From: Escherichia phage Ec_Makalu_003
DNA length: 64,000 nt
Reading direction: 5' to 3' (one strand)
Sequence record: MN882349.1
Numbering within the stretch: position 1 is the first letter of the stretch; each line of letters opens with the position of its first letter. Both the position numbers and the translations under genes were made by a program. Below the pieces are notes generated by a model. That model had not been told where the DNA came from. It saw only the letters and a list, made by a program, of their open reading frames with translations, and searched no databases. Positions 38,025 to 60,088 of the stretch are shown here, piece by piece.

Positions 38025-40268
38025 TTACAGTTTGCAAGATGAACATTCGCTAGCGTCTTCCGTACCATCAGCACCATCACGCACGTTAGCGTAATACAGT
38101 GTCTTGAGGCCGTAATATTGAGCAAACAGCATATCATCTAACACATCAGCAATATCGACTTTACCAGTCTTATAAGTGCTTGGATCATAGGATGTATTGG
38201 AACTGATCGCCTGATCTACAAACTTCTGCATGATCGCTGCCAGTGTCAGATAAGGTTTGTTACCCTTCTTGATCAGTGTCCAAAGCAGGTCAATAACATC
38301 AGCATTATTCTCTACGTTCGGAATAACCTGATTAAATTGCCCTTCTTTCGATCCTTTAACCGATACAATCCCGCGAGGCGGTTCTATTCCATTGGTGCTA
38401 TTAGATACCTGAGAAGACGACTCACAAGGCATCAGCGCCGATAGTGTACTGTTACGAATGCCATATTTTTTCAGGTCTTCGCGCAGTTCTTCCCAATCCA
38501 TTTCATACACCGGGTCAACCAGTTCATCTACTGTCTTTTTGTACCAGTCAATAGGAAGTTCACCGCGACCATAACGTGTTTCGTGCATCAGTTCGCAAGC
38601 GCCCTTCTCTTTTGCTAGCTGCACACTAGCTTTAATCAGAGCATATTGCAAGCGTTCAAACGTTTTATGCGTAAACTCGTTAGCGTCTTCATATGTGAAG
38701 AAATTATCCGCCAGATATGATGCAAAGTTAGTCACACCAACACCCAGAGAGCGACGTTTTTTGGCTGTCAGTGCTTGTTCTACAGGATAATCCTGGTAAT
38801 CTAACAAGTTGTCAAGCGCACGCACCATAACCATAGCGATCCGCTCTACTTCTTCCATATTTTCGATATCGAAATTACCTAAAACATATGCTGCCAAAGT
38901 ACACAGAGCAATTTCGGAGTCATCATGCCCCATTGGTTTAGTAGGCAGTGCAATTTCACAACACAGGTTAGATTGTTTAATCGGTGCTACATTACGAATA
39001 AACGCCCCGTGATTGTTCATGTTGTCTGTGAACGCTGGATAGATTCGACCAGTGTTAAAACGTTCAATTGCCACCGCTAAAAACAGGTCTTCGGCTTTAA
39101 CACGAGTTTTACGAACACTCGGATCTTTTTCCAGTTTTTCATAAAGCTGGCGGAATCCTTCCTCATCTCGGAAGTACAGATCCCACAACAAGCCACCCGC
39201 AACATCTGGACTAAACAGAGTAATGTAATCACGTTTAAGGAATCGCTCTACCATCAGGTTATTAATCTGTACGCCGTAATCAAGATGACGAATGCGGTTA
39301 TCTTCTACCCCTTTGTTGTTCTTCAACACAATAAGACTTTCAAACTCTAAATGCCACATTGGGTAATAGAGAGTCGCCGCCCCGCCACGAATACCGCCTT
39401 GTGAGCATGACTTAACGGCAGTCTGAAAATGCTTCCAGAATGGGATAACGCCAGTATGACGAACTTCACCATGCCCGATCTTAGATCCTTCCGCGCGAAT
39501 CATACCAGCATTGATACCGATACCAGCACGCTTACTAATATACTTGATGATTGCATTTGCTGTTTCGTTGATGCCCTGCAATGAGTCATCACTTTCAATC
39601 ACCACACACGAACTAAATTGTCGTGTTGGAGTACGCACACCAGCCATAATCGGAGTAGGCAGAGAAATTTGCTTATTCGCAACAGCATTATAAAAATCAA
39701 TCACATGTTCGAGTCGATTTTCTGTCTCTTCTTGATGTAAACACATACCGATCAGCATATACGCAAATTGCGGTGTTTCAATGATTTTCTTAGTGCTGCG
39801 ATCCTGAACAAGATATTTCTCTTTTAACTGCATCGCACCAGCATAGGTCATTTTAAAGTCAAGTTTATGGTCGATGAATTTCTCCAGATATTCCACTTCT
39901 TCACGGGAATACTTTTGCAGAATTTCGCGATCATATTTTCCGGTTGCAATATTACGCTCAATATGGCTGTAAAAATCAATAGGTTGGAATTGACCGTATA
40001 CTGATTTACGAAGCGCGAACATTGCAAGGTTACTTGCTACATATTGATAATCAGGCGTTTCTACCGTGATGTTATCTGCGGCGACCTTAATCAATACTTT
40101 CTGGATATCGTTGGTAGACATACCTTCTGTCAGAAGTGGTTCAACCATATCAAACAATTCATATGGATCAACGTTATGACCTTCGGCTGCCGCTTCCAGA
40201 ATTTTCATTACTTTTTCTTTTTCAAACGGAACAGTCAGACCGGAAGACTTAACAACATTTTTAATCAT
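38025..40268 (-). CDS. nrdA: ribonucleotide reductase large subunit
   Basis: 747 aa, ATP-cone N-terminus and class Ia catalytic signatures (NLCCEI, C-terminal CxxC tail). Confidence 0.95.
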   Translation of the reverse strand: MIKNVVKSSGLTVPFEKEKVMKILEAAAEGHNVDPYELFDMVEPLLTEGMSTNDIQKVLIKVAADNITVETPDYQYVASNLAMFALRKSVYGQFQPIDFYSHIERNIATGKYDREILQKYSREEVEYLEKFIDHKLDFKMTYAGAMQLKEKYLVQDRSTKKIIETPQFAYMLIGMCLHQEETENRLEHVIDFYNAVANKQISLPTPIMAGVRTPTRQFSSCVVIESDDSLQGINETANAIIKYISKRAGIGINAGMIRAEGSKIGHGEVRHTGVIPFWKHFQTAVKSCSQGGIRGGAATLYYPMWHLEFESLIVLKNNKGVEDNRIRHLDYGVQINNLMVERFLKRDYITLFSPDVAGGLLWDLYFRDEEGFRQLYEKLEKDPSVRKTRVKAEDLFLAVAIERFNTGRIYPAFTDNMNNHGAFIRNVAPIKQSNLCCEIALPTKPMGHDDSEIALCTLAAYVLGNFDIENMEEVERIAMVMVRALDNLLDYQDYPVEQALTAKKRRSLGVGVTNFASYLADNFFTYEDANEFTHKTFERLQYALIKASVQLAKEKGACELMHETRYGRGELPIDWYKKTVDELVDPVYEMDWEELREDLKKYGIRNSTLSALMPCESSSQVSNSTNGIEPPRGIVSVKGSKEGQFNQVIPNVENNADVIDLLWTLIKKGNKPYLTLAAIMQKFVDQAISSNTSYDPSTYKTGKVDIADVLDDMLFAQYYGLKTLYYANVRDGADGTEDASECSSCKL

Positions 40269-40279
40269 ATTACCTCACT

Positions 40280-40582
40280 TCATATATCAAGCGTATTTTC
40301 TGGAGTATCGCCGAAAACTCTATTAACGAGATCCGCCAATACTTCACCGTGGCATTTCTTAGGGTAGCAAGTACAACCTAAGCGCATATGTCTTAATACT
40401 TCTAAATGCGCCCGTGTTATCTCACCATTTCGAATCTTATTATACAACCACTCTTTGTATAATGCAATAGCTTTCTCTCGTCCGTATTCTTTGGCGGTGT
40501 ATGGATTTCCCCACATAGTACCACGCTGAATATTAACATCAAAATCGCTATTGTATTTGTTTACAACGCGGCATATTTTCAT
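40280..40582 (-). CDS. DUF4326-like small protein
   Basis: 100 aa, MWGNPYT and CTCYPKKCHGEVL motifs. Confidence 0.5.
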   Translation of the reverse strand: MKICRVVNKYNSDFDVNIQRGTMWGNPYTAKEYGREKAIALYKEWLYNKIRNGEITRAHLEVLRHMRLGCTCYPKKCHGEVLADLVNRVFGDTPENTLDI

Positions 40583-40618
40583 TTGATACTCCTTGCGGGG
40601 ATTCCTCCCCGCAATTGT

Positions 40619-41851
40619 TTATACTGCCATTTGAGCGGTGATCGCTGGATGGCTTTGATAGTTGTGAATTTTAAAGTCTTTCGGAGTTTTTGTCAATACC
40701 TCATCTAAAGATTTAAATTCCGGCAACTCAATTGTTGGTTTATCAAACGGAACACGGCTTAACTGTTCCATCACTTGGTCAAAGTGATTTTTGTAAATGT
40801 GAGTATCTCCGCCGGAGAAAATCAGTTCTCCTACTTCGAGATCACACATTTTCGCTATGATGTGAGTTAACAGCGCATAGCTGGCGACGTTAAAGGGCAA
40901 ACCCAAAAAGCTGTCTACGCTTCGCTGAAACCACATACAAGACAGTTTACCCTCATTGACATAGAATTGCACGAACGGATGACATACACCTAATACAGCA
41001 TTATGTGTTCCTTGTACGTTCCATGAGTCAATGATGATACGTCGATCCGTTGGATTGTTTTTAATTTGTTCAATCACGTTTTGTAACTGGTCTTCCCAAA
41101 TCTTCGGGCGATAGACATATTCTTCATCGTCTTTAGTGCTCGATGTGTCTATGTCCATACTAGCAAAGATCGTGGTATCCGGTGCTAAAATGTCACCGCC
41201 TAGATAATCACTATCAAGCAGATAACCGAAATAACCATCATCTACCCATTCCTGGAATCCCCACAAGCAATATGCATCATTAACAAAATTAGATTGAGTC
41301 TTCCAGTGGTCCGCTACTAAGAATTGATTATATTCAGAATCAAACTCTTCATAACGCATACCACGCCAGATAGCACATAAACGCTCTTCTGTGTCATTGT
41401 TTGGCGTAAAGTCTTCTACCCACGGGTGTTTAAATGTATGTGTATATTTGCTCTTAACGCGCTTAATTTTGATTTCACCGTGTGGATGAATCGGTTTGCG
41501 TCGCCACGCCATACCATACATATTGCCGACATTATAACCATTGAATCGCAAGGGATTCTTTTCTTTCATATCAAGACAGTTGCCGCGCCAAATATCAAAT
41601 GCTTCCTCGTCAAACTTTCCGCGTGTAATTTCCTGTAAGCGACGGCGGTCAAGTGATCCCTCCATAAACCATAGCAATTCGCCAATTACAGAGGCTGTAG
41701 CCATCTTTTTAGTGGTCAGTAATGGGAAACCCTTGCTTAAATCAATTCGCATCTCTGTGCCGAATTTAGAGAGCGTACCTACCCCCGTGCGGTCTTCACG
41801 AGGCCAGCCATTATCAAGAACATCACGCAATAGTTTCAAATATTCTTTCAT
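40619..41851 (-). CDS. td: thymidylate synthase with a large in-frame insertion
   Basis: DRTGVGT, catalytic CHPF, SFLGLPFNVASYALLTHIIAKMCDLEVGE, C-terminal PKDFKIHNYQSHPAITAQMAV match T4 Td; about 128 extra residues between YGMAWRR and WEDQLQNV. Confidence 0.85.
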   Translation of the reverse strand: MKEYLKLLRDVLDNGWPREDRTGVGTLSKFGTEMRIDLSKGFPLLTTKKMATASVIGELLWFMEGSLDRRRLQEITRGKFDEEAFDIWRGNCLDMKEKNPLRFNGYNVGNMYGMAWRRKPIHPHGEIKIKRVKSKYTHTFKHPWVEDFTPNNDTEERLCAIWRGMRYEEFDSEYNQFLVADHWKTQSNFVNDAYCLWGFQEWVDDGYFGYLLDSDYLGGDILAPDTTIFASMDIDTSSTKDDEEYVYRPKIWEDQLQNVIEQIKNNPTDRRIIIDSWNVQGTHNAVLGVCHPFVQFYVNEGKLSCMWFQRSVDSFLGLPFNVASYALLTHIIAKMCDLEVGELIFSGGDTHIYKNHFDQVMEQLSRVPFDKPTIELPEFKSLDEVLTKTPKDFKIHNYQSHPAITAQMAV

Positions 41852-43100: not shown

Positions 43101-43131
43101 AATATAATCCTCTCTTTGTTTCGATGTTTGT

Positions 43132-43159
43132 ATTATACATCATCTGTATTCGGTGTCAA
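43132..43159 (-). promoter_or_regulatory. early promoter cassette (TTGACA-16-TATAAT)
   Basis: Minus-strand elements. Confidence 0.6.
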
Positions 43160-43485
43160 CCTTTTTGTTCCATGAAAAGCGGTGCTGTTTCTTCTTTCAG
43201 TTTAATAACTAGCGCGGAAACTTCATCAAGAAAATCTTTTTCCATATGAGCAAGCATTGATTTAGAATCTTTGATGACTTTCAAAGAATATTCACTTAGA
43301 TTTCCTTTTCCTAACAATAATGCAGGATACACACTATGTGGGATCTCGATTTCATGATATTCGCTCATAGTATAATATTTGTGAATTTTTAAATCTATAT
43401 TTCTTCGTTGTACGTCCACATCAGCAATGACATACAGAAGTTCGATTTTATCACTTTTCTGGGAAAGGGTAGCATTCAAAAACAT
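43156..43485 (-). CDS. hypothetical protein (109 aa)
   Basis: Start MFLNATLSQ with GGAGGA RBS; track ORF start at 43524 would overlap the promoter. Confidence 0.55.
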   Translation of the reverse strand: MFLNATLSQKSDKIELLYVIADVDVQRRNIDLKIHKYYTMSEYHEIEIPHSVYPALLLGKGNLSEYSLKVIKDSKSMLAHMEKDFLDEVSALVIKLKEETAPLFMEQKG

Positions 43486-43515
43486 TGTTAATCCTCCGTT
43501 GTTTCGATGTGTGGT

Positions 43516-43543
43516 ATTATACATTACCGCGCCAGAATGTCAA
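43516..43543 (-). promoter_or_regulatory. early promoter cassette (TTGACA-16-TATAAT)
   Basis: Minus-strand elements. Confidence 0.6.
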
Positions 43544-43569
43544 TATATTTTTCATAAAAATTTAGGCAA

Positions 43570-44637: not shown

Positions 44638-45314
44638 CTATTTGTTTCGGCTTTTAATTGAGATATTTCTTTACACTCTTTAACGACTTTAACAAATAAT
44701 GCTCTTGCTTTTGCGGCGTCAATAACAAGTAGTTTCTTGTACGCCTTCATTTTAACACTATAAGTTTGCCAAATCAAGTCTTTGGCTACCTTGTCGTGTT
44801 CGTCGATTATATTTAGAAAGCTATCTAACAACATAAACGACTCAAACGATATAATCCGATTTTGCAGTAGTTTAAAGATACCGCTAGTTTCGGTTGCGGG
44901 ATTGTATGTAATTAGCTCTTTAAGAGTAACCCCGCGTTTCTCGGAGAAGTATACCAGACTTTTAACGTCATCGTCAAATCTTGTTGCTGCATCGGTTATC
45001 TTTCCTATGTATTCCATATAAAAGCCGTATGCGTCAACATCAGTGATTTCACCTACCCATGCATCGGTATTAGCTACCAGATTGCTTAGGAATAGGAAGT
45101 ATAATTCTCTTAGATTGTACTTTTCCGCTAATTTTGCGAAATAATACTTATCTCTGCGTTTATTGAATGCGGCATCAGACAACCGCATCCTCCAATTGTA
45201 TTTTACGCAATCATAACGCCCGTTCATATGAGCTTTCATCATGCAATATAACATATACACAGATTTAGCATTAATTCGCATATCTGGATCTGGAGGAAGA
45301 CGGTTTCTGATCAT
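44634..45314 (-). CDS. 59: helicase loader gp59
   Basis: 226 aa alignable to T4 gp59 (YNWRMRLSDAAFNKRRDKYYF, FLSNLVAN). Confidence 0.9.
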   Translation of the reverse strand: MIRNRLPPDPDMRINAKSVYMLYCMMKAHMNGRYDCVKYNWRMRLSDAAFNKRRDKYYFAKLAEKYNLRELYFLFLSNLVANTDAWVGEITDVDAYGFYMEYIGKITDAATRFDDDVKSLVYFSEKRGVTLKELITYNPATETSGIFKLLQNRIISFESFMLLDSFLNIIDEHDKVAKDLIWQTYSVKMKAYKKLLVIDAAKARALFVKVVKECKEISQLKAETNS

Positions 45315-45323
45315 ACATACCCC

Positions 45324-45593
45324 TTAAATATCGAGAGTGTTGGTCGGTTCGTCGATCACTCCCTTCCTGAGCGTTCTATTTACTATACATTCTTGTGTGA
45401 TCTTGTCAATAATGGACACCGGAATATACTTCTGATAGTGACCATATTCGATAGAGTTTTCCTCTACAAACTGAGTTGTCGCTTCAAGATAAGTCAATCC
45501 CTCTTCAACAACCAGTTTTTCGATTGCAAGACCGTTTGCTGTTTTGTTCGCGGCTTTTACCGCATGTTCATTAAGCATTGAACACCCGATCAT
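45324..45593 (-). CDS. 33: late transcription accessory protein gp33
   Basis: IEKLVVEEGLTYLEATTQFVEENSI matches the T4 gp33 core; start could instead be the internal Met at 45578. Confidence 0.8.
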   Translation of the reverse strand: MIGCSMLNEHAVKAANKTANGLAIEKLVVEEGLTYLEATTQFVEENSIEYGHYQKYIPVSIIDKITQECIVNRTLRKGVIDEPTNTLDI

Positions 45594-45846
45594 AGAGTTC
45601 TACCGCTTCGTCGCGTTCTGCTTCGAAGGTTTCGCGCTGTTGCTGGTGATATAGTTTAAACAGAATACCCCACATTTTACCATCTACGCCTAATTCTTCT
45701 TTAGCACGCTGTTTGATCTCTTTGATCTTATCGCCATATGCTTCTTGAATGGTTTTCTGATCGCTGGCTTCTTTAATCAGTTGTGCCAGTGTATTTCCGT
45801 GTACTGCTTCATCAAATACTACTTTTTCTTTTTTCTGTTCAGTCAT
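45571..45846 (-). CDS. dsbA: DsbA-like double-stranded DNA-binding protein
   Basis: 91 aa ORF at the T4 dsbA position between 33 and rnh. Confidence 0.65.
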   Translation of the reverse strand: MTEQKKEKVVFDEAVHGNTLAQLIKEASDQKTIQEAYGDKIKEIKQRAKEELGVDGKMWGILFKLYHQQQRETFEAERDEAVELYDRVFNA

Positions 45847-45850
45847 AATA

Positions 45851-46450
45851 TTAACCCTCTTTAGTCATTAATTGAAAACCACGTTCAGCTTTTGAGATTT
45901 CGCTAGGACGTAAATCATCACCTACATATTCTAGCATCATTTCTCTGATAATGTCAAGTGCTTTTTCATCACCTGATTTTAACTCGAACTCAAGTTCATA
46001 ATGAGCAGTGTCGCCCAATCCTTCGCCTACTTTGCCATAATAGAAAGTGTCTTTGCACATTTCCACTATACCACAACCCATATCTAGAGTCAATGACTTG
46101 CGATATGTCATTACTTGCATTATTGTAGTGATATAGTCTGAGTTTACCTCTAGACTATCAATAAAATGGACGAACTCATCCCAATTTGAAAATGTCGTTT
46201 CCTCGCGGTTGAATAGTCCAGATTCATTATCACCAATTTTGACCATGATCTCTGATTTTCTACAGTCAAGTCGTGCATAAATTCCTTTTTGACGTAGCGC
46301 ATGGTCTTCGGTATCATAATAAAATTCGTGTTTTAATATGTTATCTCGATCTACGATATTATAACCGTCATACATTGCCACCCACAAATCACAGATGGTT
46401 TCGACGCCAATTTGTGAGTGTGCATAGTATTTTAACTCAAGTTCTTTCAT
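45851..46450 (-). CDS. CYTH-domain (triphosphate tunnel metalloenzyme-like) protein
   Basis: N-terminal ELELK (ExExK) and C-terminal acidic HYELEFELKSGDE strand typical of CyaB/ThTPase (CYTH) domains. Confidence 0.55.
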   Translation of the reverse strand: MKELELKYYAHSQIGVETICDLWVAMYDGYNIVDRDNILKHEFYYDTEDHALRQKGIYARLDCRKSEIMVKIGDNESGLFNREETTFSNWDEFVHFIDSLEVNSDYITTIMQVMTYRKSLTLDMGCGIVEMCKDTFYYGKVGEGLGDTAHYELEFELKSGDEKALDIIREMMLEYVGDDLRPSEISKAERGFQLMTKEG

Positions 46451-46460
46451 GTGTCAACCC

Positions 46461-47408
46461 TTAGAACTCACCAATTTTCTGCAACATTTTAACTAACGCA
46501 TTTGTTACAAAATAGTTATAAATTTTACCGCGTGGTGCTGGTTTAGATTTTTCCCATGCTAACAAAATTTCATATTCGATGTTATCAGGAATAAATTCAA
46601 AATCAATAAGTTCGCGGTTTTCGTCAAAGCGTTGTGCTTCTTCCTCTGTCATCAAAGACTTTGGATCTTCGGCATCGAAAATTTGCTCTAACCATTTGGT
46701 TGCAATTGGTTTAGCTCGTTCCCCTTCCAGCCGTGAGATAATGAAATCACTACGGCACTTGATGGAAGCTACACCGTCTTTTGCGTCACCCTTAACACAT
46801 TTTACCATAAGGTCTTTGTAAGGACTACCATATTTGCATTTCTTCCATGCTTTCTGTACTGGTGCCCACTGTTTCACGTTTTTGTATTTGTGCAACTGTG
46901 TGTAGTCACCATCGCCGGAGTTGATTAGCACCTGGCGACCTTCTACAGAAAACTTTTTAGTTAACACAGCGATTATATCGTCTGCCTCAACTTTGTCAAC
47001 CTTAATAACGTGATAAGGCATGTTCTCTTTAAACTCTTCGGTGATCTTATTGATCGCAGCAAAGATCATCTCCCAATCACGCGGATCTGCGTCTCGCTTT
47101 TCCTTACGGTTACGCTTGTAATAAGGTGCGATATCACGTCGCCAGTAACCTTTGCTAGAGTCAAAGGCAAGTACCGTAATCGGGTATTGCTCTTTGAATT
47201 TTGTCATATTATAACGCATGGTGTCAAGGATAAGATGACGGATCATACCTTCATTAATCGGATCTTCCGGCTTAAATGTATGAGAGATAGTAGCAATCAT
47301 AAGCTGCGACATATCAATCAAATGCACACCTTCCGGCAGTTTATCTTCTGGATCATCGAAGAAATCATTAAGTGTAGCGGTAGTTTTTGTAAACGGGTTA
47401 TACGTCAT
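46461..47408 (-). CDS. rnh: RNase H (5'-3' exonuclease, FEN-1 family)
   Basis: 315 aa alignable to T4 RNase H (MIRHLIL, GYWRRD, EADDIIAVL, SGDGDYTQLHKY, PRGKIY). Confidence 0.92.
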   Translation of the reverse strand: MTYNPFTKTTATLNDFFDDPEDKLPEGVHLIDMSQLMIATISHTFKPEDPINEGMIRHLILDTMRYNMTKFKEQYPITVLAFDSSKGYWRRDIAPYYKRNRKEKRDADPRDWEMIFAAINKITEEFKENMPYHVIKVDKVEADDIIAVLTKKFSVEGRQVLINSGDGDYTQLHKYKNVKQWAPVQKAWKKCKYGSPYKDLMVKCVKGDAKDGVASIKCRSDFIISRLEGERAKPIATKWLEQIFDAEDPKSLMTEEEAQRFDENRELIDFEFIPDNIEYEILLAWEKSKPAPRGKIYNYFVTNALVKMLQKIGEF

Positions 47409-47410
47409 AA

Positions 47411-47596
47411 TTAAGTTCTCTCCACTCTCACAACAACATATTCGCCAAACGAGTTAGATACTTCACGGTCATACCCGTATTTCTCCATAACTCGCAGAAT
47501 TGCATTGTTTAATTCAGCACGGAAATAATTGTAATCCTTATCTGGGATTCTGTCAACTATCCATTTTGCACCGTCTGACAAATCAACTTTAACCAT
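47411..47596 (-). CDS. small hypothetical protein (61 aa)
   Basis: Start MVKVDLS with AAGAGGA RBS. Confidence 0.5.
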   Translation of the reverse strand: MVKVDLSDGAKWIVDRIPDKDYNYFRAELNNAILRVMEKYGYDREVSNSFGEYVVVRVERT

Positions 47597-47632
47597 AATA
47601 TCATCCTCTTTTGTTTCTATCAAGCCTCATTT

Positions 47633-47640
47633 TATAAATA
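47633..47640 (+). promoter_or_regulatory. late promoter TATAAATA for gene 34
   Basis: Exact TATAAATA 29 bp upstream of the ATG at 47669, followed by AAGGAG RBS. Confidence 0.7.
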
Positions 47641-47668
47641 TGAACATACTATAAAAGGAGACCCAATA

Positions 47669-50600
47669 ATGGCAGATTTTTCTCAACATTTCAAGGCCAC
47701 ATTTGGCTTTGACGCTGGTAATGAAAAGGTCGTCAATGTAGCATTGGCTGATAAGAATGTCAACACCGATGCGGTCAACGTTGAATTTTTCAATTACCAT
47801 AATGGTATTACTCAGTATGACACAACTCGCGGTTATGATCAATACGGAACTACAATCTATCAAAACCGTCCGTATTATGCAAAAGAAGATATCACAAAGC
47901 CAGCAGGTGATTTTGACCCGACTAAATGGCAAGCACTGCGCACGGACCCACGTTGGGATTATATTGCAGCAACTTCCGGTGATACTCCTTTACAGTCTGG
48001 TGATTATATCGCAGCAGATGGTCAATTTGCAAACTTGACTTTCTCTATGCCATCTAAACCAGCAGAGGGGGACACTATAACAGTAAAAGATATCGGTGGC
48101 AAGTGTGGTGTTAACGAATTATCGTTCTTGAGTTCAGGACATGAGTTTTATCATAACGGTAATGTGTATAACCGAAAATGGTATTGCACTACCCCGTATG
48201 CAATGAACTATTTCATCTTTGTTCGTAATCGTTGGCATGTTTATCAGACAGGAACAGAGCCACGCGGTGTGTACGCACAGCCAGCGATTGATGCTATTCA
48301 AATGCAGAATGGTGATCAGGTATTTCGTCGTAGTTCTTTGGGTAATATTACCTTAGTGCTTCCTAAGTTTGCCAACAATGGCGACATGATCCAGACTACA
48401 GACCTTGACGGATTAACCGCAACCAACCACGTTACGGTTAAAGTTCATGAGCACGCAGAAGAACAATCAATTGGCACGTCCGGTCTAAAAGAGATTATCG
48501 GTAAGCGTAGCGGTCATGGTGTATTCATCTTTGACAAGACGGAAAACTTATGGCGTTTGTGGGATGGTGATCAGTCTGTTCGTCTTAAACCGATCATCGA
48601 TGACACTCGCTTGCAACCTAATAGCTATGTTGCCGTATTTGGTGATCGTGATGTTACTCTGACGCTGCCGACCAATGTCGAGCCGGGTGATCGTATTCAA
48701 GTTTCTATGCAGTATATGCACGGAAACCAGAATTGCCGTATTATCACCGCCACAGAGGATACAAAAATCCTCATGTCGAAAAACATGGTTCAGTTTCCGA
48801 AGCGTAGCGAGTACCCATTCAACGGGACCGACACATGGAAGGAAGTGTCTGAATTGTCGTTCAATGCGGCTAGTGATTATGTACCTTATCTGGAGTTCTC
48901 TTATTCAGAAGGTGATGATGGTAAGAAACATTGGCTGGTAGCACACTCTCATCCGATCGTCGAACGAGTAGACCCTACTCGTAAAGATCGTGTTGGTGTC
49001 ATTGCACTGGCTACCCAGACTGAAACGAATAAAAACCATGAAGAGAATCCTAGCGACGAAGTTGCCGTAACACCAAAAATGCTGGCTAATAAAACAGCCA
49101 ACGAAACTCGACGCGGTATTGCTCGTATTGCTACTCAGGCGGAAACGCATCAAGATACTGGTTCCAGCTTCCTGGATGATGTTATCGTTACACCTAAAAA
49201 GTTAAATGACTGTGTTGCTACCGAAGCCCGTCGTGGTGTGATGGAAATTGCAACCCAGCACGAAACCAATGAAGGTTTAGACGATACACGCGCTATTACT
49301 CCTAAGAAATTAGAAGAACGTCGCGCTTCCGAAGACCTCGCTGGTATTGCTGAAATTGTTCAGGTAGGCGGTCGTGCTGCCGCTCGACGTGGTGAAGCTG
49401 GTACAGGGATCTATAACATCAATGACCATGCTAAAATTGTTACACCACAAAACATCAACGAGGTCAAGGCGACCGAAACTTCCCGTGGTGTTGGCTATCT
49501 GGCAACTGACGCGGAAGTGCAAGGGGCTACAGAATCAACCCCGCAAGATGCTTTACTAATCACGACTCGCACGCTAACGAAACGTACTGCTACCGAATCG
49601 CGCACTGGTATCGCTGAAATTGCAACTCAGGAAGAAACAAACTTAGGTCAAAGTGATAACCATATCATCACGCCTAAAAAGCTGCATACTCGCCGTGCGA
49701 CGGAAACTCTACACGGTTTAGCAGAAATTGCAACTCAGCCGGAATTTGACGCAGGTCTTGACGATGCTCGCATTTCTACCCCATTGAAGATTAAAACCTT
49801 CTTTGAGAATGCACAGCGTTTGAAAGTAGATCCGACTCAGGGGCTTAACCTTACTGGTGATTTGTGGCAAGGTATCATGATCAGCGGTCTGGACGCAACC
49901 GAAGACACAAAAGGTGTCGCTAAAGTTGCTACTACTCAGCTTACTGACGCTGGTCAAGATGATACTACAATCATCACGCCTAAAAAGCTGCAAGGCAAAA
50001 AGGCCACCGAAGGTAAAGAAGGTATTATCCGAGTTGGTACTCAAGCCGAAACCGTGGCTGGTACACTGGCTAATGTAGCAATTTCTCCGAAGAACTTCAA
50101 ATATGTTGTTCAGACAGAGGATACATGGAAAGCAACCGAAGCTCGTCGTGGTTTCTTGAAAGTTGCTACTCAGGAAAACTGTTTTGTTGGTGACAATCTG
50201 CAAGGTTCTACTCAAGAACTAGGAAACTATCAGCATGACGGAATTGCTGTTACTCCGAAAGGATTAAACTACGCACTTGCTAATTTCTTGCCTAAGATGG
50301 CAACCGCTCAGAATAGTTTGAAATTGGGTAACGTAGAGGCCGCTAAATGGGCGCGTAGAGACATTGACCAGACCATAGAGAGCAATTACACGTTTAATAA
50401 AAACGTTAACGTGAAGGGCGATTTAGAGTGCTTAAAATCAGGTTCCTTTGAAACTCTGTATGTGACTAAGAACTCTACTGATGATCCGAGTAATGGTCAT
50501 CTGGTGTTGGGTGAGCGTGGAGTTGACGGTCACACCGGAATTACTCTGCATGGCACAACCGCATCGGAAGGCATGAAAAACTCCTGGTCTATTATCGTTG

Positions 50601-52784: not shown

Positions 52785-54275
52785 ATGGCAGATTTGAAAT
52801 ATGGATCTACTGTAGGTGGATCTCCCATTTGGACGCAAGGAAACTTGACGATCCAGCCAGCGGGGGATCAGCTTTTCTACAAAGGTCATAAAATCTATAC
52901 CGCTTTTGATAGACCTTCGGCTACCGATTTTGATGCTGTTAGTGCATCCGAAGGTGGCACATTTCAAAAGCAAGTTCATTTCGAGGAAGGTTTAAGCGTA
53001 GGTAGCGCATCGGCTGGAGAAACCAAAAAGAATGGTATCTTTAAAGGTCAGAGTGACGCTGCTAATTTTGACGGCGTAAGCTGGGGTTTGCATTCATGGA
53101 AGTCAATCGGCTTTGTTAATGCCCGTGATGGCGTTATTATGGCGTATATTGACACCACAACGGGCGAATTTAAGTCTAAAGGGACTATCGAAGGGACAAC
53201 CATTAAAGACACAGGTCAACGCGTCTATAGCCCTGTTAATAAACCAACGAATAATGATTTAGATTTGGTGTCTCGTCGCGGTGATACCCTCACAGGAACA
53301 TATAATTTAAACACTGTCACTGTTAAACTATCGGTTGATTCGAAATTAATTGCAAGGGAACGTGATTTAATTAATTTTGATGCGACTAAGATCTATTATG
53401 GTAACGTTCTTGATACGTTGGTATTCCGAAGTAAAGATGAGCCTACCATTTTTGTTAATGGCAAAGAAGGTCGTTTTTATCACACCAACAATAAACCAAC
53501 TAAAGCCGATGTGGGACTAGGCAATGTCACCAATGATGCACAGGTTAAACGTGCTGGTGATATTATGGAAGGTAACTTGCAAGCGCCTAGAATGTTGGCG
53601 ACAAACGATCCTGCTGGTCCGAATGAATTGGTTCGTTTGAGCTACTTTGAGAGAAAATCAATGGTAGCAAATCCAACCATCATAGGAAACGTTGATTGGA
53701 ACACTCTTATTAATCGCGGTATCTATCGTGTGGAAAATGCGGGATCAGGTACTAATAAACCGTCTGATAGCTATTATAACGGCGTTTTGATGGTATACCG
53801 ACCAGAAGATGCGGTCGGTACTCGTCGAATTGTTCAGGTGTATTATCCTGAATCTATTGACCATCCGATGTGCTGGCGTTCTTGTTCTAATGAATCGTGG
53901 ACTGCATGGAACTATGTAGATCACCGTAAATTAGCCGATATTCGCTATGTTAACGTAACTGGTGATACCATGACAGGACCGTTAACTGTTCCGGCTGCAA
54001 ATGGCGTTAGAACGGCTAGAGGTGCATATAATGGTGATAACTACTATGCTGGGTTAAATAGTGCCGATGGCACGGCTATGATTCACCGTATCAGCGATAT
54101 TAAAGCCACCGAAAAATTGGGGATCACCCACGACTCAAAGGTCGTGTTTTTCCGTTCTAGAAACAATACTCAAACCGTGGATCGCTATCAGCTTTATCAT
54201 GAAGGTAATAAACCTACTCCGGCTGATGTTGGTGCGGTTCCACTTAATGCGGTGATTGATTTTGGTACTTTCTAA
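52785..54275 (+). CDS. 36: long tail fibre distal connector gp36 (enlarged)
   Basis: N-terminus MADLKYGSTVGGSPIWTQGN matches T4 gp36; 496 aa versus 221 in T4. Confidence 0.85.
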   Translation: MADLKYGSTVGGSPIWTQGNLTIQPAGDQLFYKGHKIYTAFDRPSATDFDAVSASEGGTFQKQVHFEEGLSVGSASAGETKKNGIFKGQSDAANFDGVSWGLHSWKSIGFVNARDGVIMAYIDTTTGEFKSKGTIEGTTIKDTGQRVYSPVNKPTNNDLDLVSRRGDTLTGTYNLNTVTVKLSVDSKLIARERDLINFDATKIYYGNVLDTLVFRSKDEPTIFVNGKEGRFYHTNNKPTKADVGLGNVTNDAQVKRAGDIMEGNLQAPRMLATNDPAGPNELVRLSYFERKSMVANPTIIGNVDWNTLINRGIYRVENAGSGTNKPSDSYYNGVLMVYRPEDAVGTRRIVQVYYPESIDHPMCWRSCSNESWTAWNYVDHRKLADIRYVNVTGDTMTGPLTVPAANGVRTARGAYNGDNYYAGLNSADGTAMIHRISDIKATEKLGITHDSKVVFFRSRNNTQTVDRYQLYHEGNKPTPADVGAVPLNAVIDFGTF

Positions 54276-54288
54276 TTTTAGCGGGGAT

Positions 54289-54314
54289 TCTCTCCCCGCT
54301 TTTCTAAATAATAT
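54289..54314 (+). terminator. terminator-like hairpin after gene 36
   Basis: AGCGGGGA-TTCTC-TCCCCGCT then TTTT. Confidence 0.55.
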
Positions 54315-54345
54315 TATTCTAATAACCGTTTAAGGATTTTATAAA

Positions 54346-57288
54346 ATGGCAGATTTAAGCAGAATCCAATTTAAACGTACTAGCACTAAAGGCCGTCGAC
54401 CTGATGCTGGTACGATGAATCCGGGGGAATTGGCAATCAACCTTGCGGATCAATATCTTCTTACTAAAAATGATTCCGGCGCTATTATCAATTTAAGTTG
54501 TCCTCCGGTTTATGACCGTGATGTTACAATGGCGGGTAAGGTTAAAGGAAATAATTATATTTTAAGTAAAACCGCCAATTATCTGGAAGACCAGACAGCG
54601 AGAGATCTTAACTACTTTGGTGCTTTCCGTACCAATAGTCTAGATGGACTCATGGATCTAACCCTTAACGTTCCTCACTCTTCCGGTAAAGCGCATGGTC
54701 GAGGATTTACTTTCCGTTATGGGACTGGCGGATCTCGTGTTGAAACCTATGGTTTTGATGTTCAGGGACAAAAAGCATTTAGTTATAAAATGTATCATGA
54801 AGGGGATAAACCGACTCCCTCAGAATTGAACGTTTATAGCAAACAAGAAGTTGACCGTATGTTTGTTAAAACCGTTAAACTTGCTACAGTTCCTGTTGAT
54901 ATCGTTGACGGTTATTTTAAATTAGCAACTGCATTGATTCCGCAAAACGGTCGTAGTGTATTTTTCCGTATTCATGGTGGTAACGGATATAACGTTACTG
55001 CATACGATCAAGTTGATATTGTAGAAATTGTTATTCGCAGTGGAAATAATCGTCCTAAAGGTGTTAACGTTATTGCATACCGCCGAAATACAAACAAAGC
55101 ATTTGATGTTTTGGCTGTTAATACTTCTGGTGATAACTATGATATCTACGTGAAATATCAGCGTTACACTGATAACGTTATTGTTGAATTTGGTAAAAGT
55201 GTTGATGTTGATCTGGTGGTTCATGACGTTCCAGACTTTGTTGTTGATCGTCCTGTTGGTGATAATGTTATTGGCGGTCGCGCGGTAACTCTTTTTAACA
55301 CCGAAAACAAACGAGGTGTGTTGAGTTTTGACGATAACACACAAAATAGTTATGATATTGTTCACTTGAGTAATGATAAAGGTACTGGAAGGAAATATAT
55401 TCGTAAATTCCGTAGTAACTATAATGAAATGATCTGGCATGAGACGGTTCAAGGTTCCAGTTATCGACTCGCCACGGGTAGTACAGATGCTCAGGAAATT
55501 ATAACTATTGAATCTAGTAGCTCAATTGCTGGAACTCATAAAGGTAATATTATTTCTGGTCGTATGCTGTTAAATGGCGGATCTAATGCCATTACACTAC
55601 GCCGACCTGCTGGTCAGTCTAATCATATCGCTTTTCAGGATAACCGCACCGGAGATATTACTCGTCAAGGATGGATCGGTTATGCAAACGCTGATACTAA
55701 CGTTTTTGAATGGTATAGTGATGTAGGCGGTAGTTCTATTCGTCAACATATTGACGGCCAGATAGAACTTCAAACTGGCAATATGAAGCGAGTTTATACT
55801 AACGCTCAATTCATCTCAATGAATAGCGACGCCTACCGTATGCTCTATGGTAATTATGGTGCATTCTGGCGTAATGACGGCGTTAAAGTTTATCTTCTTT
55901 CTACTGCCGAAAATGATAAATTGGGCGGATGGAATACTTATCGTCCATTCATTTATGATTTAACTTCCGGTAACGTTCAATTAGGTGGTGATGGTAACGA
56001 AGATGCATTAACTTTAGAATGTGCTTCTCGTGCCGCTCGCTTTAGTAATGACGTTTACATTAAGAAAGGGCATTTGACTTTCGATGCTGGTCGATTAAAT
56101 TCTCGTGATTACTTCCGGTTTAACCATTGGGGTGATAGCAATAACGCCCGTGATAACATCCTACAGCTTGACGATAGCAAAGGTGCACACTTCACCACTG
56201 AACGTACTTTAGCAACTGGTGCGATTAGAACTAAATTCTTCGGTGATTTGGAAGCTGCTGGTCAAATTAAATGGGGTAAAGGGACCGCCGCATCTACGTT
56301 TACTCTACGTGTATGGGGTAACGATAGTCGTAAACAAATATTTGAATGCGGCGATGAAAGCGGGTGGCATTGGTATACCCAACGCGCTGGCGGTCCAGAT
56401 ACTTCTGCAATTGAGTTTGCCATCAACGGTACTGTTAAGCCTCAAGCAATTCACACTGGCGGTAATATCACTATCAACGGTGCTGATATTGAGTTTAAAC
56501 GCACTGGCAATAAGCACATCTGGTTTAGAGACCCGAACGGTTTAGAGTTAGGCTTGATGTACTGCGATGATGCTGGTGCTATTCGCTTCCGTGGTCAGAA
56601 ACAAGCCCAGGCGTGGAAATTTGCAGATAAAATGATCCAGTTGGAATCTGGCACTGTATCCGGTGGCGGTAATGGCCTGATTCGTGGTGAAGTTGCTGGC
56701 GGTAGTTGGGCTAGCTGGCGTGACCGTGCTGCTGGCCTTATGGTTGGGTGTCCTCAATCCGTTGATTCGGCACATAACGTATGGAAAGCGACGCATTGGG
56801 GTAAATATCATATCGCAGCAATGGGTGTACATGTTCCTAGTGGTACGATTACCAATGCTTTAGCTCGCCTAAACGTTCATGACGCTAACTTTGACTTTAG
56901 CGCCTCCGGTGACCTGTCGGTAGGGCGTAATGGTTCGTTTAACGATGTTTATATTCGTTCTGATGCTCGCCTTAAAATCAACAAAGAAGAGTATAAAGAG
57001 AATGCCACCGATAAAGTTAATCGCTTGACGGTATACACCTATGACAAGGTTAAATCTTTAACCGACCGCACTGTCATTGCTCATGAAGTTGGTATTATTG
57101 CTCAGGATCTTGAAAAAGAATTGCCGGAAGCAGTAACAACTTCTAAGGTCGGCGATCCTGATAAGCCAGAAGAGATCTTAACAATTTCTAACTCTGCTGT
57201 CAACGCTCTTTTAATTAAGGCGTTTCAGGAAATGAGCGAAGAATTGAAAGTCGTTAAAGCTGAACTAGCGGAACTTAAAAAGAATTAA
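54346..57288 (+). CDS. 37: long tail fibre distal subunit gp37 with C-terminal intramolecular chaperone domain
   Basis: N-terminus MADLSRIQFKRTS...GELAINL matches T4 gp37; the last 110 aa (56959-57288) begin with SDARLK, the autoproteolysis motif of S74-type chaperone domains. Confidence 0.9.
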   Translation: MADLSRIQFKRTSTKGRRPDAGTMNPGELAINLADQYLLTKNDSGAIINLSCPPVYDRDVTMAGKVKGNNYILSKTANYLEDQTARDLNYFGAFRTNSLDGLMDLTLNVPHSSGKAHGRGFTFRYGTGGSRVETYGFDVQGQKAFSYKMYHEGDKPTPSELNVYSKQEVDRMFVKTVKLATVPVDIVDGYFKLATALIPQNGRSVFFRIHGGNGYNVTAYDQVDIVEIVIRSGNNRPKGVNVIAYRRNTNKAFDVLAVNTSGDNYDIYVKYQRYTDNVIVEFGKSVDVDLVVHDVPDFVVDRPVGDNVIGGRAVTLFNTENKRGVLSFDDNTQNSYDIVHLSNDKGTGRKYIRKFRSNYNEMIWHETVQGSSYRLATGSTDAQEIITIESSSSIAGTHKGNIISGRMLLNGGSNAITLRRPAGQSNHIAFQDNRTGDITRQGWIGYANADTNVFEWYSDVGGSSIRQHIDGQIELQTGNMKRVYTNAQFISMNSDAYRMLYGNYGAFWRNDGVKVYLLSTAENDKLGGWNTYRPFIYDLTSGNVQLGGDGNEDALTLECASRAARFSNDVYIKKGHLTFDAGRLNSRDYFRFNHWGDSNNARDNILQLDDSKGAHFTTERTLATGAIRTKFFGDLEAAGQIKWGKGTAASTFTLRVWGNDSRKQIFECGDESGWHWYTQRAGGPDTSAIEFAINGTVKPQAIHTGGNITINGADIEFKRTGNKHIWFRDPNGLELGLMYCDDAGAIRFRGQKQAQAWKFADKMIQLESGTVSGGGNGLIRGEVAGGSWASWRDRAAGLMVGCPQSVDSAHNVWKATHWGKYHIAAMGVHVPSGTITNALARLNVHDANFDFSASGDLSVGRNGSFNDVYIRSDARLKINKEEYKENATDKVNRLTVYTYDKVKSLTDRTVIAHEVGIIAQDLEKELPEAVTTSKVGDPDKPEEILTISNSAVNALLIKAFQEMSEELKVVKAELAELKKN

Positions 57289-59594: not shown

Positions 59595-59786
59595 TCACTT
59601 ATCGTTAAGAAGTTCTAAAACTTTCTGTCGTACTTTGTCAATATTAGTTGACTCAAATACTGTACGGTATCCCCAACTTTGACCGTATGATCGAGAGCAA
59701 TCCCCGTATCCCCATTGTTCAACCTGATAGTATTCAAGGAATGGGTGTTGCCGAACTATGATACCATCGCGATTAAAAATTACCAT
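59595..59786 (-). CDS. hypothetical protein (63 aa)
   Basis: ORF with GAGGAT RBS. Confidence 0.5.
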   Translation of the reverse strand: MVIFNRDGIIVRQHPFLEYYQVEQWGYGDCSRSYGQSWGYRTVFESTNIDKVRQKVLELLNDK

Positions 59787-59809
59787 AATATAATCCTCAC
59801 GTCAACAAA

Positions 59810-60088
59810 CTATTTTCGGTTATACTTCTGCCACTTTCGGTAATACTGCTTGTAATGTTGTTTAATGTTTGGCGGTTCGTCACTATACATGTTATCAACC
59901 ATCATGTCAATAAGACCCTCCGGTGTTTGATAGCTCCCCGCTCGAATAAGTTCCTTAATTAAAAGATCTTGCGTCGCTTTATACTCTACAATAACAACTG
60001 TCTTTTCTGCCTTTCCAATTCCGATCTGGTCGTTAGCTCTCATAGCATCCCACCAGTCTTTTTTAAACTTCATGTTATTGAATTGCAT
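59810..60088 (-). CDS. hypothetical protein (92 aa)
   Basis: ORF with AAGAGG RBS. Confidence 0.55.
   Translation of the reverse strand: MQFNNMKFKKDWWDAMRANDQIGIGKAEKTVVIVEYKATQDLLIKELIRAGSYQTPEGLIDMMVDNMYSDEPPNIKQHYKQYYRKWQKYNRK

What the first reader, a model, noticed from the sequence alone, without database searches (positions are those of the whole stretch)
45851..46450. CYTH-domain protein inserted between dsbA and rnh
The 199-aa protein starts with ELELK (ExExK) and has an acidic C-terminal strand HYELEFELKSGDE, the two ends of the eight-strand tunnel of CyaB/ThTPase-type triphosphate tunnel metalloenzymes. T4 has no gene at this position that I recall. Candidate activities are a triphosphatase acting on RNA 5' ends or nucleotides, or a nucleotide cyclase.
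Basis: inference. Interest (0 to 1): 0.5.

Follow-up and report, generated by a model that had tools for sequence, protein, structure and literature searches.

The report
Phage triphosphate-tunnel (CYTH) phosphohydrolase gene
An RB49-type (Krischvirus) coliphage carries, between its RNase H and dsbA genes, a real 199-residue enzyme of the triphosphate-tunnel (CYTH) family. It is closest to E. coli inorganic triphosphatase YgiF, was already annotated as such in relatives, and has an unknown role in infection.

Summary
ORF 45851-46450 (minus strand, 199 aa) starts MKELELK, carries HYELEFELKSGDE at residues 150-162, and lies between rnh and dsbA. T4 has only 8 nt at that position.

The CYTH reading is supported:
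- Pfam CYTH scores 32.2 bits against a cutoff of 23.2.
- The AlphaFold model has pLDDT 90.
- All YgiF metal-binding and catalytic residues are invariant. The one exception is the second beta3 arginine, which is an invariant Asp (D62).

A class IV cyclase is disfavoured. There is no room for the HF motif, both glutamates of the beta8 ExE motif are kept, and the catalytic Arg is kept. The best call is a stand-alone metal-dependent triphosphate phosphohydrolase whose substrate is undetermined.

The domain assignment is not new. RB49ORF244c was linked to ygiF in GenBank and listed as CYTH in 2006, and some records call it inorganic triphosphatase or adenylate cyclase.

New here:
- The gene keeps its slot upstream of dsbA even in relatives only 34-52% identical.
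- It diverges much faster than its neighbours.
- Codons 1-150 form one of a few divergence islands in 47 kb. They are old alleles swapped by recombination, with the tunnel lining conserved.

Interest is modest.

The parts
45851..46450 (-). CYTH/TTM gene, 199 aa, 23.2 kDa, pI 4.6. It is the orthologue of RB49ORF244c and belongs to PHROG 14893.
46430..46444 (-). Beta1 ExExK motif (E3, E5, K7). E3 and E5 correspond to YgiF Glu-4 and Glu-6, the metal-2 ligands.
   Evidence: Invariant in all members. Residue roles from PMC4641920. Numbering check.
46265..46279 (-). Beta3 strand Y58-A-R60-L-D62. R60 matches the catalytic Arg-56 of YgiF. D62 replaces YgiF Arg-58. Y58 sits at the position of the ThTPase thiazole-stacking Trp-53.
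   Evidence: Multiple alignment with YgiF and 15 relatives. Motif definitions in PMC8233210.
45974..46003 (-). Beta8 acidic strand H150-Y-E152-L-E154-F-E156-L-K158-S. E154 matches YgiF Glu-160 (metal 1) and E156 matches Glu-162 (metal 2).
   Evidence: Residue roles.
45863..45895 (-). C-terminal plug helix S186-K187-A-E-R190-G-F-Q-L-M. The SKxERG motif is conserved across the wider family.
   Evidence: Model helix 187-196. Column conservation. Plug-helix role.
46001..46450 (-). Mosaic, hyperdivergent block covering codons 1-150. It is about 50-55% identical in DNA to phage Skers while the flanks are about 97% identical. Synonymous sites are saturated.
   Evidence: Sliding identity. dN/dS. It is one of only 6-9 divergence islands in 47 kb.
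45851..46000 (-). Conserved 3' module covering codons 151-199. It is shared almost unchanged by all Krischvirus allele classes. It contains the Shine-Dalgarno sequence for dsbA and a sigma70-like TTGACA-N18-TAGAAT at 45957..45928.
46461..47408 (-). rnh (T4-type RNase H / 5'-3' exonuclease), the upstream neighbour. Its stop codon lies 10 nt before the CYTH ATG.
45571..45846 (-). dsbA (late-transcription dsDNA-binding protein), the downstream neighbour, 4 nt after the CYTH stop codon.

Best explanation
The gene encodes a stand-alone triphosphate tunnel metalloenzyme (CYTH superfamily) of the YgiF-like branch. By homology, the predicted eight-stranded beta-barrel binds the triphosphate part of a small substrate inside its lumen. 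Invariant basic residues (K7, R60, K71, R82, R117, K187, R190) hold the substrate. E154 holds the substrate-bound Mg2+/Mn2+ (metal 1). E3, E5 and E156 hold a second metal that activates water to attack the terminal phosphate, releasing orthophosphate. R60 assists bond cleavage. The C-terminal helix plugs one tunnel mouth, so the substrate is expected to be a small molecule and not a polymer. Shown here: the fold (as a prediction), the family, the complete catalytic residue set, purifying selection, and conserved position. Inferred: the chemistry, which is hydrolysis and not cyclisation. Not determined: the substrate. Inorganic triphosphate is the default by homology. However, the clade-specific lumen changes (R to D62, Y58, F80, C132, F136, Y138) and the redundancy of PPPase activity in E. 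coli suggest a different substrate, possibly an organic or nucleotide-like triphosphate. The gene is an accessory gene. It is probably expressed before replication on the rnh-dsbA transcripts and is dispensable in culture. Its exterior varies between allele classes while the tunnel is fixed, which fits a host-interaction or metabolic-tuning role.
For: - Catalytic residues: YgiF Glu-4, Glu-6, Lys-8, Arg-56, Lys-69, Glu-160 and Glu-162 have invariant counterparts. Their roles come from PMC4641920.
- Not a cyclase: an in-frame TGA two codons upstream leaves only two residues before ExExK, so the HFxxxxExExK motif cannot exist. The second ExE glutamate is Glu and not Ala, and the first beta3 Arg is kept.
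- Selection: dN/dS is 0.18-0.29. Of tunnel-facing strand residues, 19 of 45 are invariant, against 3 of 46 outward-facing ones (Fisher p 6.6e-5).
- Retention: the gene is intact in 57 of 58 Krischvirus records. It keeps the same slot in relatives 34-52% identical.
- PPPase redundancy in E. coli.
Against: - There is no biochemical evidence for any member of this phage clade.
- The model is a prediction. I could not inspect its coordinates, so which residues face the tunnel was inferred from strand alternation, anchored on invariant residues. That is partly circular.
- D62 places a negative charge where TTM hydrolases normally bind the gamma/beta phosphate. This could change the chemistry or the substrate in ways that homology cannot predict.
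- One relative (P0044) appears to have Tyr at the D134 position.
- Expression timing is inferred only from consensus promoter matches and gene packing.
Confidence: 0.75

Rival explanations
1. It is a class IV (CyaB-type) adenylate or nucleotidyl cyclase that makes cAMP or another cyclic nucleotide in the infected cell. Several GenBank records annotate it this way.
For: It belongs to the same superfamily. 'Adenylate cyclase' annotations exist. CyaB structures are significant fold matches.
Confidence: 0.04
2. It is an RNA 5'-triphosphatase acting on 5'-ppp ends. Candidate targets are host or phage transcripts, to speed 5'-end-dependent decay, or the pppAC-type Okazaki primers that the adjacent RNase H removes.
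For: The TTM fold is used by Cet1 and viral capping triphosphatases. The gene has stayed directly next to rnh across deep divergence.
Confidence: 0.1
3. It is a counter-defence or signal-quenching enzyme. It would hydrolyse a triphosphate-bearing alarm or immune molecule, for example pppGpp-type alarmones, signalling NTPs such as dITP, or linear ppp-oligonucleotide signals. Alternatively it would detoxify the PPPi produced by dNTP triphosphohydrolase defences.
For: The exterior and allele classes diversify strongly while the catalytic tunnel is fixed. The gene is one of very few divergence islands in 47 kb, the largest of the others overlapping the distal tail-fibre region. It is accessory and lineage-restricted. 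E. coli already has ample PPPase, which argues against a plain housekeeping role. Bacterial immune systems that use NTP-type signals exist, for example dITP in Kongming.
Against: There is no hit in PADLOC. No literature links CYTH to anti-defence. Saturated dS shows allele replacement and not demonstrable positive selection, and dN/dS is below 0.3. Mosaicism is common in T4-like accessory genes. No specific target is indicated by any data here.
Confidence: 0.12
4. It is a catalytically inactive binding protein or decoy that only sequesters a phosphate-rich ligand.
For: D62 replaces a phosphate-binding Arg. Phage sponge proteins for nucleotide signals are a known strategy (titles).
Against: Both metal sites and the catalytic Arg are invariant across members as low as 34% identical. 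In AtTTM3, mutating the arginine that corresponds to D62 did not strongly impair catalysis.
Confidence: 0.04

Closest known systems
E. coli YgiF (inorganic triphosphatase, CYTH-CHAD; PDB 5a60/5a61)
   Different: There is no CHAD domain (199 aa against 433). YgiF Arg-58 is replaced by the invariant D62. Several lumen residues are larger or aromatic (Y58, F80, F136, Y138) where YgiF-type proteins have G, S, H or V. The protein is phage-encoded.
RB49ORF244c and its Krischvirus orthologues (PHROG 14893)
   Same: They are orthologues, 82-98% identical in protein, in the same slot between rnh and dsbA. They are already noted as 'similar to ygiF', listed as CYTH at E 0.0026 in 2006, and annotated as 'inorganic triphosphatase' or 'adenylate cyclase' in a few records.
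   Different: Nothing essential differs. The window carries the Phi1/ECD7-type allele. RB49 carries a second allele class (84%) and Skers a third (57%).
Mammalian thiamine triphosphatase (ThTPase, PDB 3bhd/5a64)
   Different: The motif here is YxRxD and not W/YxRxR. The aromatic residue is not conserved in P0006 (Ser), P0044 (Val) or P0045 (Ile). Identity is only about 15%.
Class IV adenylate cyclase CyaB (PDB 2fjt/3n10)
   Same: Same superfamily and tunnel fold, with two metal sites.
Cet1 / viral capping-enzyme RNA triphosphatases
   Same: TTM fold with acidic beta1 and beta8 strands.

Membership tests
CYTH / triphosphate tunnel metalloenzyme superfamily (Pfam PF01928) | Profile match above the curated threshold | tested here: met
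   32.2 bits against a gathering score of 23.2, E 1.2e-7, covering residues 23-191. Note that the divergent alleles P0037 and P0044 fall below Pfam detection.
CYTH / triphosphate tunnel metalloenzyme superfamily (Pfam PF01928) | N-terminal ExExK on beta1 | tested here: met
   E3-L-E5-L-K7, invariant in all members.
CYTH / triphosphate tunnel metalloenzyme superfamily (Pfam PF01928) | Eight-stranded antiparallel beta-barrel tunnel | tested here: met
CYTH / triphosphate tunnel metalloenzyme superfamily (Pfam PF01928) | Acidic ExE(xE) on beta8 plus lumen Arg/Lys residues for the triphosphate | tested here: met
   E152/E154/E156, R60, K71, R82, R117, K187 and R190 are invariant and align to YgiF ligand residues.
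CYTH / triphosphate tunnel metalloenzyme superfamily (Pfam PF01928) | Divalent-metal-dependent cleavage of a triphosphate substrate | not testable with these tools
   This needs an enzyme assay.
YgiF-type CYTH-CHAD inorganic triphosphatase | C-terminal CHAD (polyphosphate-binding) domain | tested here: not met
   The protein ends at residue 199, just after the plug helix. There is no CHAD hit. CHAD is present in relatives such as P0050.
YgiF-type CYTH-CHAD inorganic triphosphatase | RxR pair on beta3 (YgiF Arg-56 and Arg-58) | tested here: not met
   R60 is kept, but the second position is an invariant Asp (D62; Asn in P0045).
YgiF-type CYTH-CHAD inorganic triphosphatase | Specific PPPi hydrolysis | not testable with these tools
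   This needs an assay.
Class IV adenylate cyclase (CyaB / AC-IV) | HFxxxxExExK N-terminal motif | tested here: not met
   Only M1 and K2 precede ExExK. An in-frame TGA lies two codons upstream of the ATG.
Class IV adenylate cyclase (CyaB / AC-IV) | Second Glu of the beta8 ExE motif replaced by Ala | tested here: not met
   E154-x-E156, both invariant.
Class IV adenylate cyclase (CyaB / AC-IV) | First beta3 Arg replaced by a small residue | tested here: not met
   R60 is invariant.
Thiamine triphosphatase | W/YxRxR motif with a conserved aromatic residue | tested here: not met
   The motif is Y58-x-R60-x-D62. The aromatic residue is not conserved across the clade and the second Arg is absent.
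Cet1-like RNA 5'-triphosphatase | Closest structural and sequence affinity to capping-enzyme triphosphatases, with a tunnel open for an RNA end | tested here: inconclusive
Known anti-phage defence or anti-defence protein families | Match to a catalogued model | tested here: not met
   No PADLOC hit at E up to 1. No literature link was found. No anti-defence HMM library was available.

The most novel reading that the evidence does not exclude
The most novel reading not excluded is that the phage tunnel enzyme does not scavenge inorganic triphosphate. Instead, it would use a remodelled pocket (Y58, D62, F80, F136, Y138) to destroy a specific organic triphosphate that matters in the phage-host conflict. 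Candidates are a signalling or alarm nucleotide, or the 5'-triphosphate of small RNAs or primers. In this reading the divergent allele classes reflect selection on its exterior to escape host recognition or inhibition. It would be the first CYTH-family counter-defence or RNA-end enzyme described in a bacteriophage.
Probability: 0.15. Interest if true: 0.7.

Novelty: new member of a known kind. Interest (0 to 1): 0.3.

Why it matters
If it is simply a triphosphatase, this is a routine accessory metabolic gene. The practical value would be a corrected annotation: records should read 'triphosphate tunnel metalloenzyme / CYTH phosphohydrolase' and not 'adenylate cyclase' or 'hypothetical protein'. 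It would matter more if the substrate proves to be a signalling nucleotide or an RNA 5' end. No phage CYTH enzyme has been characterised in the literature searched here. The combination of a fixed catalytic tunnel, a variable exterior and exchange of old alleles in otherwise near-identical genomes resembles genes involved in host interaction. The gene is small, soluble-looking and dispensable in at least one isolate, so the question is cheap to test.

Tried and rejected
- **TriTu immunity protein.** A single-sequence PDB search gave a weak hit to the T6SS immunity protein TriTu (7zhm_C, E 0.017, residues 21-100). It disappeared with the family profile and has no support from the fold searches, so I rejected it as chance.
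- **NCBIfam.** It gave only a sub-threshold HAD-IIIA hit (13 bits against a cutoff of 44.6), which I rejected.
- **PADLOC.** No hit.
- **HMM register against YgiF.** The alignment placed Y58 opposite the catalytic Arg-56, which would have implied loss of the catalytic Arg. A 17-sequence alignment showed this was a register error caused by the position of a Gly. R60 is the catalytic Arg and D62 replaces Arg-58.
- **Recent foreign origin.** GC is 36.8%, within the range of the neighbours (37-45%), so there is no signal.
- **In-place positive selection.** This was rejected as the main cause of the divergence, because dS is saturated (about 2.8) and dN/dS is about 0.2-0.3.
- **Late promoter.** There is no TATAAATA on the gene's strand nearby.
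- **Viral-contig pattern scan.** It added nothing.
- **AFDB fold library.** Unavailable.
- **Literature.** Searches for phage CYTH/TTM function or anti-defence links found nothing specific.

Full report
**1. The observation**

The window carries an ORF at exactly 45851..46450 on the minus strand. It is 199 aa, 23.2 kDa, pI 4.6.
- Pfam identifies the flanking ORFs as T4-type rnh (46461..47408) and dsbA (45571..45846), followed by gp33, gp59 and gp32. Gene 34 lies on the other strand beyond a 70-aa ORF.
- The genes are tightly packed. There are 10 nt between the rnh stop and the CYTH ATG, with AAGGG upstream of the ATG. There are 4 nt between the CYTH stop and the dsbA ATG, with GAGGG inside the last CYTH codons.
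- In T4, rnh and dsbA are 8 nt apart with nothing between them.

**2. Which genome this is, and how the gene is distributed**

The region is 99.2% identical to Escherichia phage Ec_Makalu_001 and 95-97% identical to Phi1, ECD7 and other RB49-like phages of the genus Krischvirus.
- tblastn finds the protein in 58 phage records, all of them the same Krischvirus-group records found by DNA similarity. dsbA itself is found in 1,400 records. The gene is therefore a lineage-specific accessory gene.
- It is intact in 57 of the 58 records. In vB_EcoM_G2494 it is split into 66-aa and 130-aa ORFs. If that is not a sequencing error, the gene is dispensable in culture.
- In about 5.8 billion proteins only 43 clusters match by sequence.
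- In a filter-free profile search of 1.84 billion representatives, only 3 clusters score below 1e-30 and 6 below 1e-10.

The clade is small and isolated.

**3. Family and fold**

- Pfam CYTH (PF01928) matches above the gathering score (32.2 against 23.2 bits, E 1.2e-7). PHROG 14893, of unknown function, matches at 1e-131.
- A profile of 16 family members finds one PDB sequence, E. coli YgiF, aligned over the full length (3-195 against 6-201, E 0.0033).
- AlphaFold2 with that alignment gives a confident model (pLDDT 90.2, pTM 0.84). It has eight long strands, interspersed helices and a C-terminal helix at 187-196.
- Foldseek against the PDB ranks YgiF first (E 3.6e-12, TM 0.75), followed by other tunnel enzymes.

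The CYTH/TTM interpretation is supported.

**4. The active site**

I aligned the protein with YgiF and 15 relatives and checked the +2 offset between PDB-chain and paper numbering. The residues that Martinez et al. 2015 showed to bind metals and substrate in YgiF map as follows:

| YgiF residue | Role | This protein |
|---|---|---|
| Glu-4, Glu-6, Glu-162 | metal 2, water activation | E3, E5, E156 |
| Glu-160 | metal 1 | E154 |
| Arg-56 | catalytic | R60 |
| Lys-8 | substrate binding | K7 |
| Lys-69 | substrate binding, orients Glu-4 | K71 |
| Arg-58 | second beta3 arginine | D62 |

- R82, E84, R117, D134, K187 and R190 are also matched and invariant in the Krischvirus alignment; the outgroup P0044 appears to have Tyr at the D134 position.
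- The single exception is YgiF Arg-58. It is Asp (D62) in every Krischvirus allele and in P0043 and P0044, and Asn in P0045.
- An initial HMM register that put Y58 opposite Arg-56 was an artefact, resolved by the wider alignment.
- In AtTTM3, mutating the arginine equivalent to D62 did not strongly impair catalysis. The site should therefore be active, but D62 adds a negative charge near the gamma/beta-phosphate position.
- Other lumen positions carry clade-specific residues where YgiF-type proteins have small ones: Y58, at the position of the thiazole-stacking Trp-53 of ThTPase, plus F80, C132, F136 and Y138.
- Using strand alternation, tunnel-facing positions are far more conserved than outward-facing ones: 19 of 45 against 3 of 46 invariant, Fisher p 6.6e-5. 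One caveat applies. One anchor per strand was chosen from invariant residues, so 8 of the 19 are invariant by construction.

**5. Hydrolase or cyclase**

Vogt et al. 2021 give three motifs that separate class IV cyclases from phosphatases: HFxxxxExExK, Ala in place of the second beta8 Glu, and a small residue in place of the first beta3 Arg. All three fail here.
- Only two residues precede ExExK, and an in-frame TGA lies two codons upstream of the ATG.
- E154-x-E156 is intact.
- R60 is invariant.

The ThTPase motif W/YxRxR is only half met (YxRxD), and the Tyr is not conserved in P0006, P0044 or P0045. The 'adenylate cyclase' label in some GenBank records is therefore probably wrong. The best mechanistic call is a two-metal phosphohydrolase that removes the terminal phosphate of a small triphosphate. 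The plug helix argues against a polymeric substrate.

The substrate itself is not determined. PPPi is the default by homology. Kohn et al. 2012 found that in E. coli YgiF contributes only marginally to PPPase activity, that inorganic pyrophosphatase dominates, and that PPPi is undetectable. A phage PPPase would seem redundant. Together with the remodelled lumen, this leaves room for a different substrate. That last step is inference.

**6. Evolution and context**

Three metagenomic relatives were located on contigs: P0043 (52% identical), P0044 (40%) and P0045 (34%). All lie directly upstream of dsbA-gp33, and P0043 also lies directly downstream of rnh.
- In those contigs rnh, dsbA and gp33 are 69-81% identical to the window's. 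The slot is therefore old, and CYTH diverges much faster than its neighbours.
- Within Krischvirus, where the neighbours are 96.5-100% identical, CYTH is 84% identical in RB49 and 57% in Skers.
- The divergence is confined to codons 1-150. DNA identity to Skers is about 50-55% from about 46,440 to about 46,000 and about 95-97% on both sides. All Krischvirus allele classes share the last 49 residues almost unchanged.
- Nei-Gojobori estimates show saturated synonymous divergence in the block (dS about 2.8 against Skers) compared with 0.06-0.26 in the flanks. dN/dS is 0.18-0.29, against 0-0.1 for the neighbours.

So the pattern is replacement by old, divergent alleles through recombination, with the breakpoint at the conserved ELEFELKSGD motif. 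Purifying selection continues, though it is somewhat relaxed. In-place positive selection is not demonstrated.

Over 47 kb compared with Skers and RB49, only 6 and 9 divergence islands exist, covering 10-13% of the length. The CYTH block is one of them in both comparisons. The largest island lies in the distal tail-fibre region at about 54-57 kb, and the rest are indel sites and a few small ORFs. Base composition gives no sign of recent foreign origin.

The nearest relatives outside the syntenic phage group are cellular. One is a locus with archaeal-type marker genes (Sec61-beta, RIO1), where the CYTH gene sits next to a PRK-family kinase. Another is a locus where it sits next to a Mur ligase gene. 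CYTH-CHAD proteins also appear.

**7. Expression (inferred)**

- There is no TATAAATA late promoter on the gene's strand nearby. The one at 47633-47640 (+) serves gene 34.
- Sigma70-like promoter matches are enriched in the region (22 against 7.9 +/- 3.4 expected). Minus-strand sites lie upstream of and within rnh.
- With the tight packing, co-transcription with rnh before replication is the most likely pattern. This is consensus matching only.

**8. Prior knowledge and novelty**

- The RB49 GenBank entry annotates the orthologue RB49ORF244c as 'similar to P45267, P30871, HI1598, ygiF'.
- Nolan et al. 2006 list 'RB49ORF244c CYTH domain 0.0026' in their Pfam table.
- A few recent records name it 'inorganic triphosphatase' or 'adenylate cyclase'.
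- Iyer et al. 2021 mention CYTH triphosphatases scattered across jumbo phages as possible nucleotide-pool enzymes.
- BFVD contains other, distant phage CYTH proteins.
- I found no functional study of any phage CYTH enzyme.

The domain assignment is therefore already known, and the protein is an uncharacterised member of a known enzyme kind. As far as I could find, the following are new here:
- the argument against the cyclase label;
- the R-to-D62 change and the aromatic lumen residues;
- the deep conservation of the slot upstream of dsbA;
- the allele-mosaic structure with a fixed tunnel.

**9. Verdict**

The finding is real and correctly interpreted at family level, but it is not new and is of modest interest (0.3). 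The most novel reading that remains open is a conflict-related enzyme acting on a specific organic triphosphate or an RNA 5' end. I put its probability at about 0.15. It would be interesting (about 0.7) and is cheap to test.

Noticed in passing
window 46544-46663 (3' part of rnh): A second short patch of low DNA identity (about 65%) to phage Skers lies inside the otherwise 97-100% identical rnh gene. It suggests another small recombination patch just upstream of the CYTH block.
   Followed up: no
window 45200-47800, minus strand: Sigma70-like promoter matches are enriched (22 against 7.9 +/- 3.4 in shuffles). They include a perfect TTGACA-N16-TATAAT at 46999..46972 inside rnh, TTGACA-N17-TAAAAT at 46457..46429 straddling the CYTH start codon, and TTGACA-N18-TAGAAT with an extended TG at 45957..45928 inside the CYTH 3' end, upstream of dsbA.
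   Followed up: partly
window 47411-47623 (-): A 70-aa ORF lies between rnh and gene 34. It is the orthologue of RB49ORF246c, matches PHROG 3594 (unknown function) and has no Pfam hit. T4 appears to lack it.
   Followed up: no
window 47633-47640 (+): A T4-type late promoter consensus, TATAAATA, lies 29 nt upstream of the gene 34 (long tail fibre proximal subunit) start at 47669.
   Followed up: no
window 43105-43554 and 40255-41154: These are indel or divergence islands relative to Skers and RB49. The window has a 122-aa ORF (43156..43524) upstream of gene 32. At that position RB49 has the 485-aa ORF239c and Skers has a GIY-YIG nuclease gene, and Skers also has an HNH endonuclease between genes 59 and 32. 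This is typical traffic of mobile nuclease genes.
   Followed up: partly
window 53905-57204: This is the largest divergence island in the 47-kb comparison. It overlaps the distal tail-fibre region, which is gp37 and the adhesin in RB49 and Skers.
   Followed up: no
window 59755-60054 (ORF 59810..60088, 92 aa, minus strand): A small ORF of unknown function forms another divergence island in both comparisons, at 69-79% DNA identity in a background of about 95%.
   Followed up: no
L007 (phage vB_EcoM_G2494) 601-1196: The CYTH gene is annotated as two ORFs (66 and 130 aa), which indicates either a frameshift or a sequencing error. BFVD and the protein database also hold a 130-aa fragment.
   Followed up: partly
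P0048; L008 3797-5606: CYTH shows a recurrent association with P-loop or PRK-type nucleoside kinases among the nearest cellular relatives. P0048 is a fusion of CYTH with an AAA_28 / thymidylate-kinase-like domain. In a locus with archaeal-type marker genes, P0046 sits immediately after a PRK-family kinase gene. This is reminiscent of plant TTM1/2.
   Followed up: no
whole window 1-64000: There are no tRNA genes (ARAGORN) and no Rfam family reaches its gathering score.
   Followed up: yes
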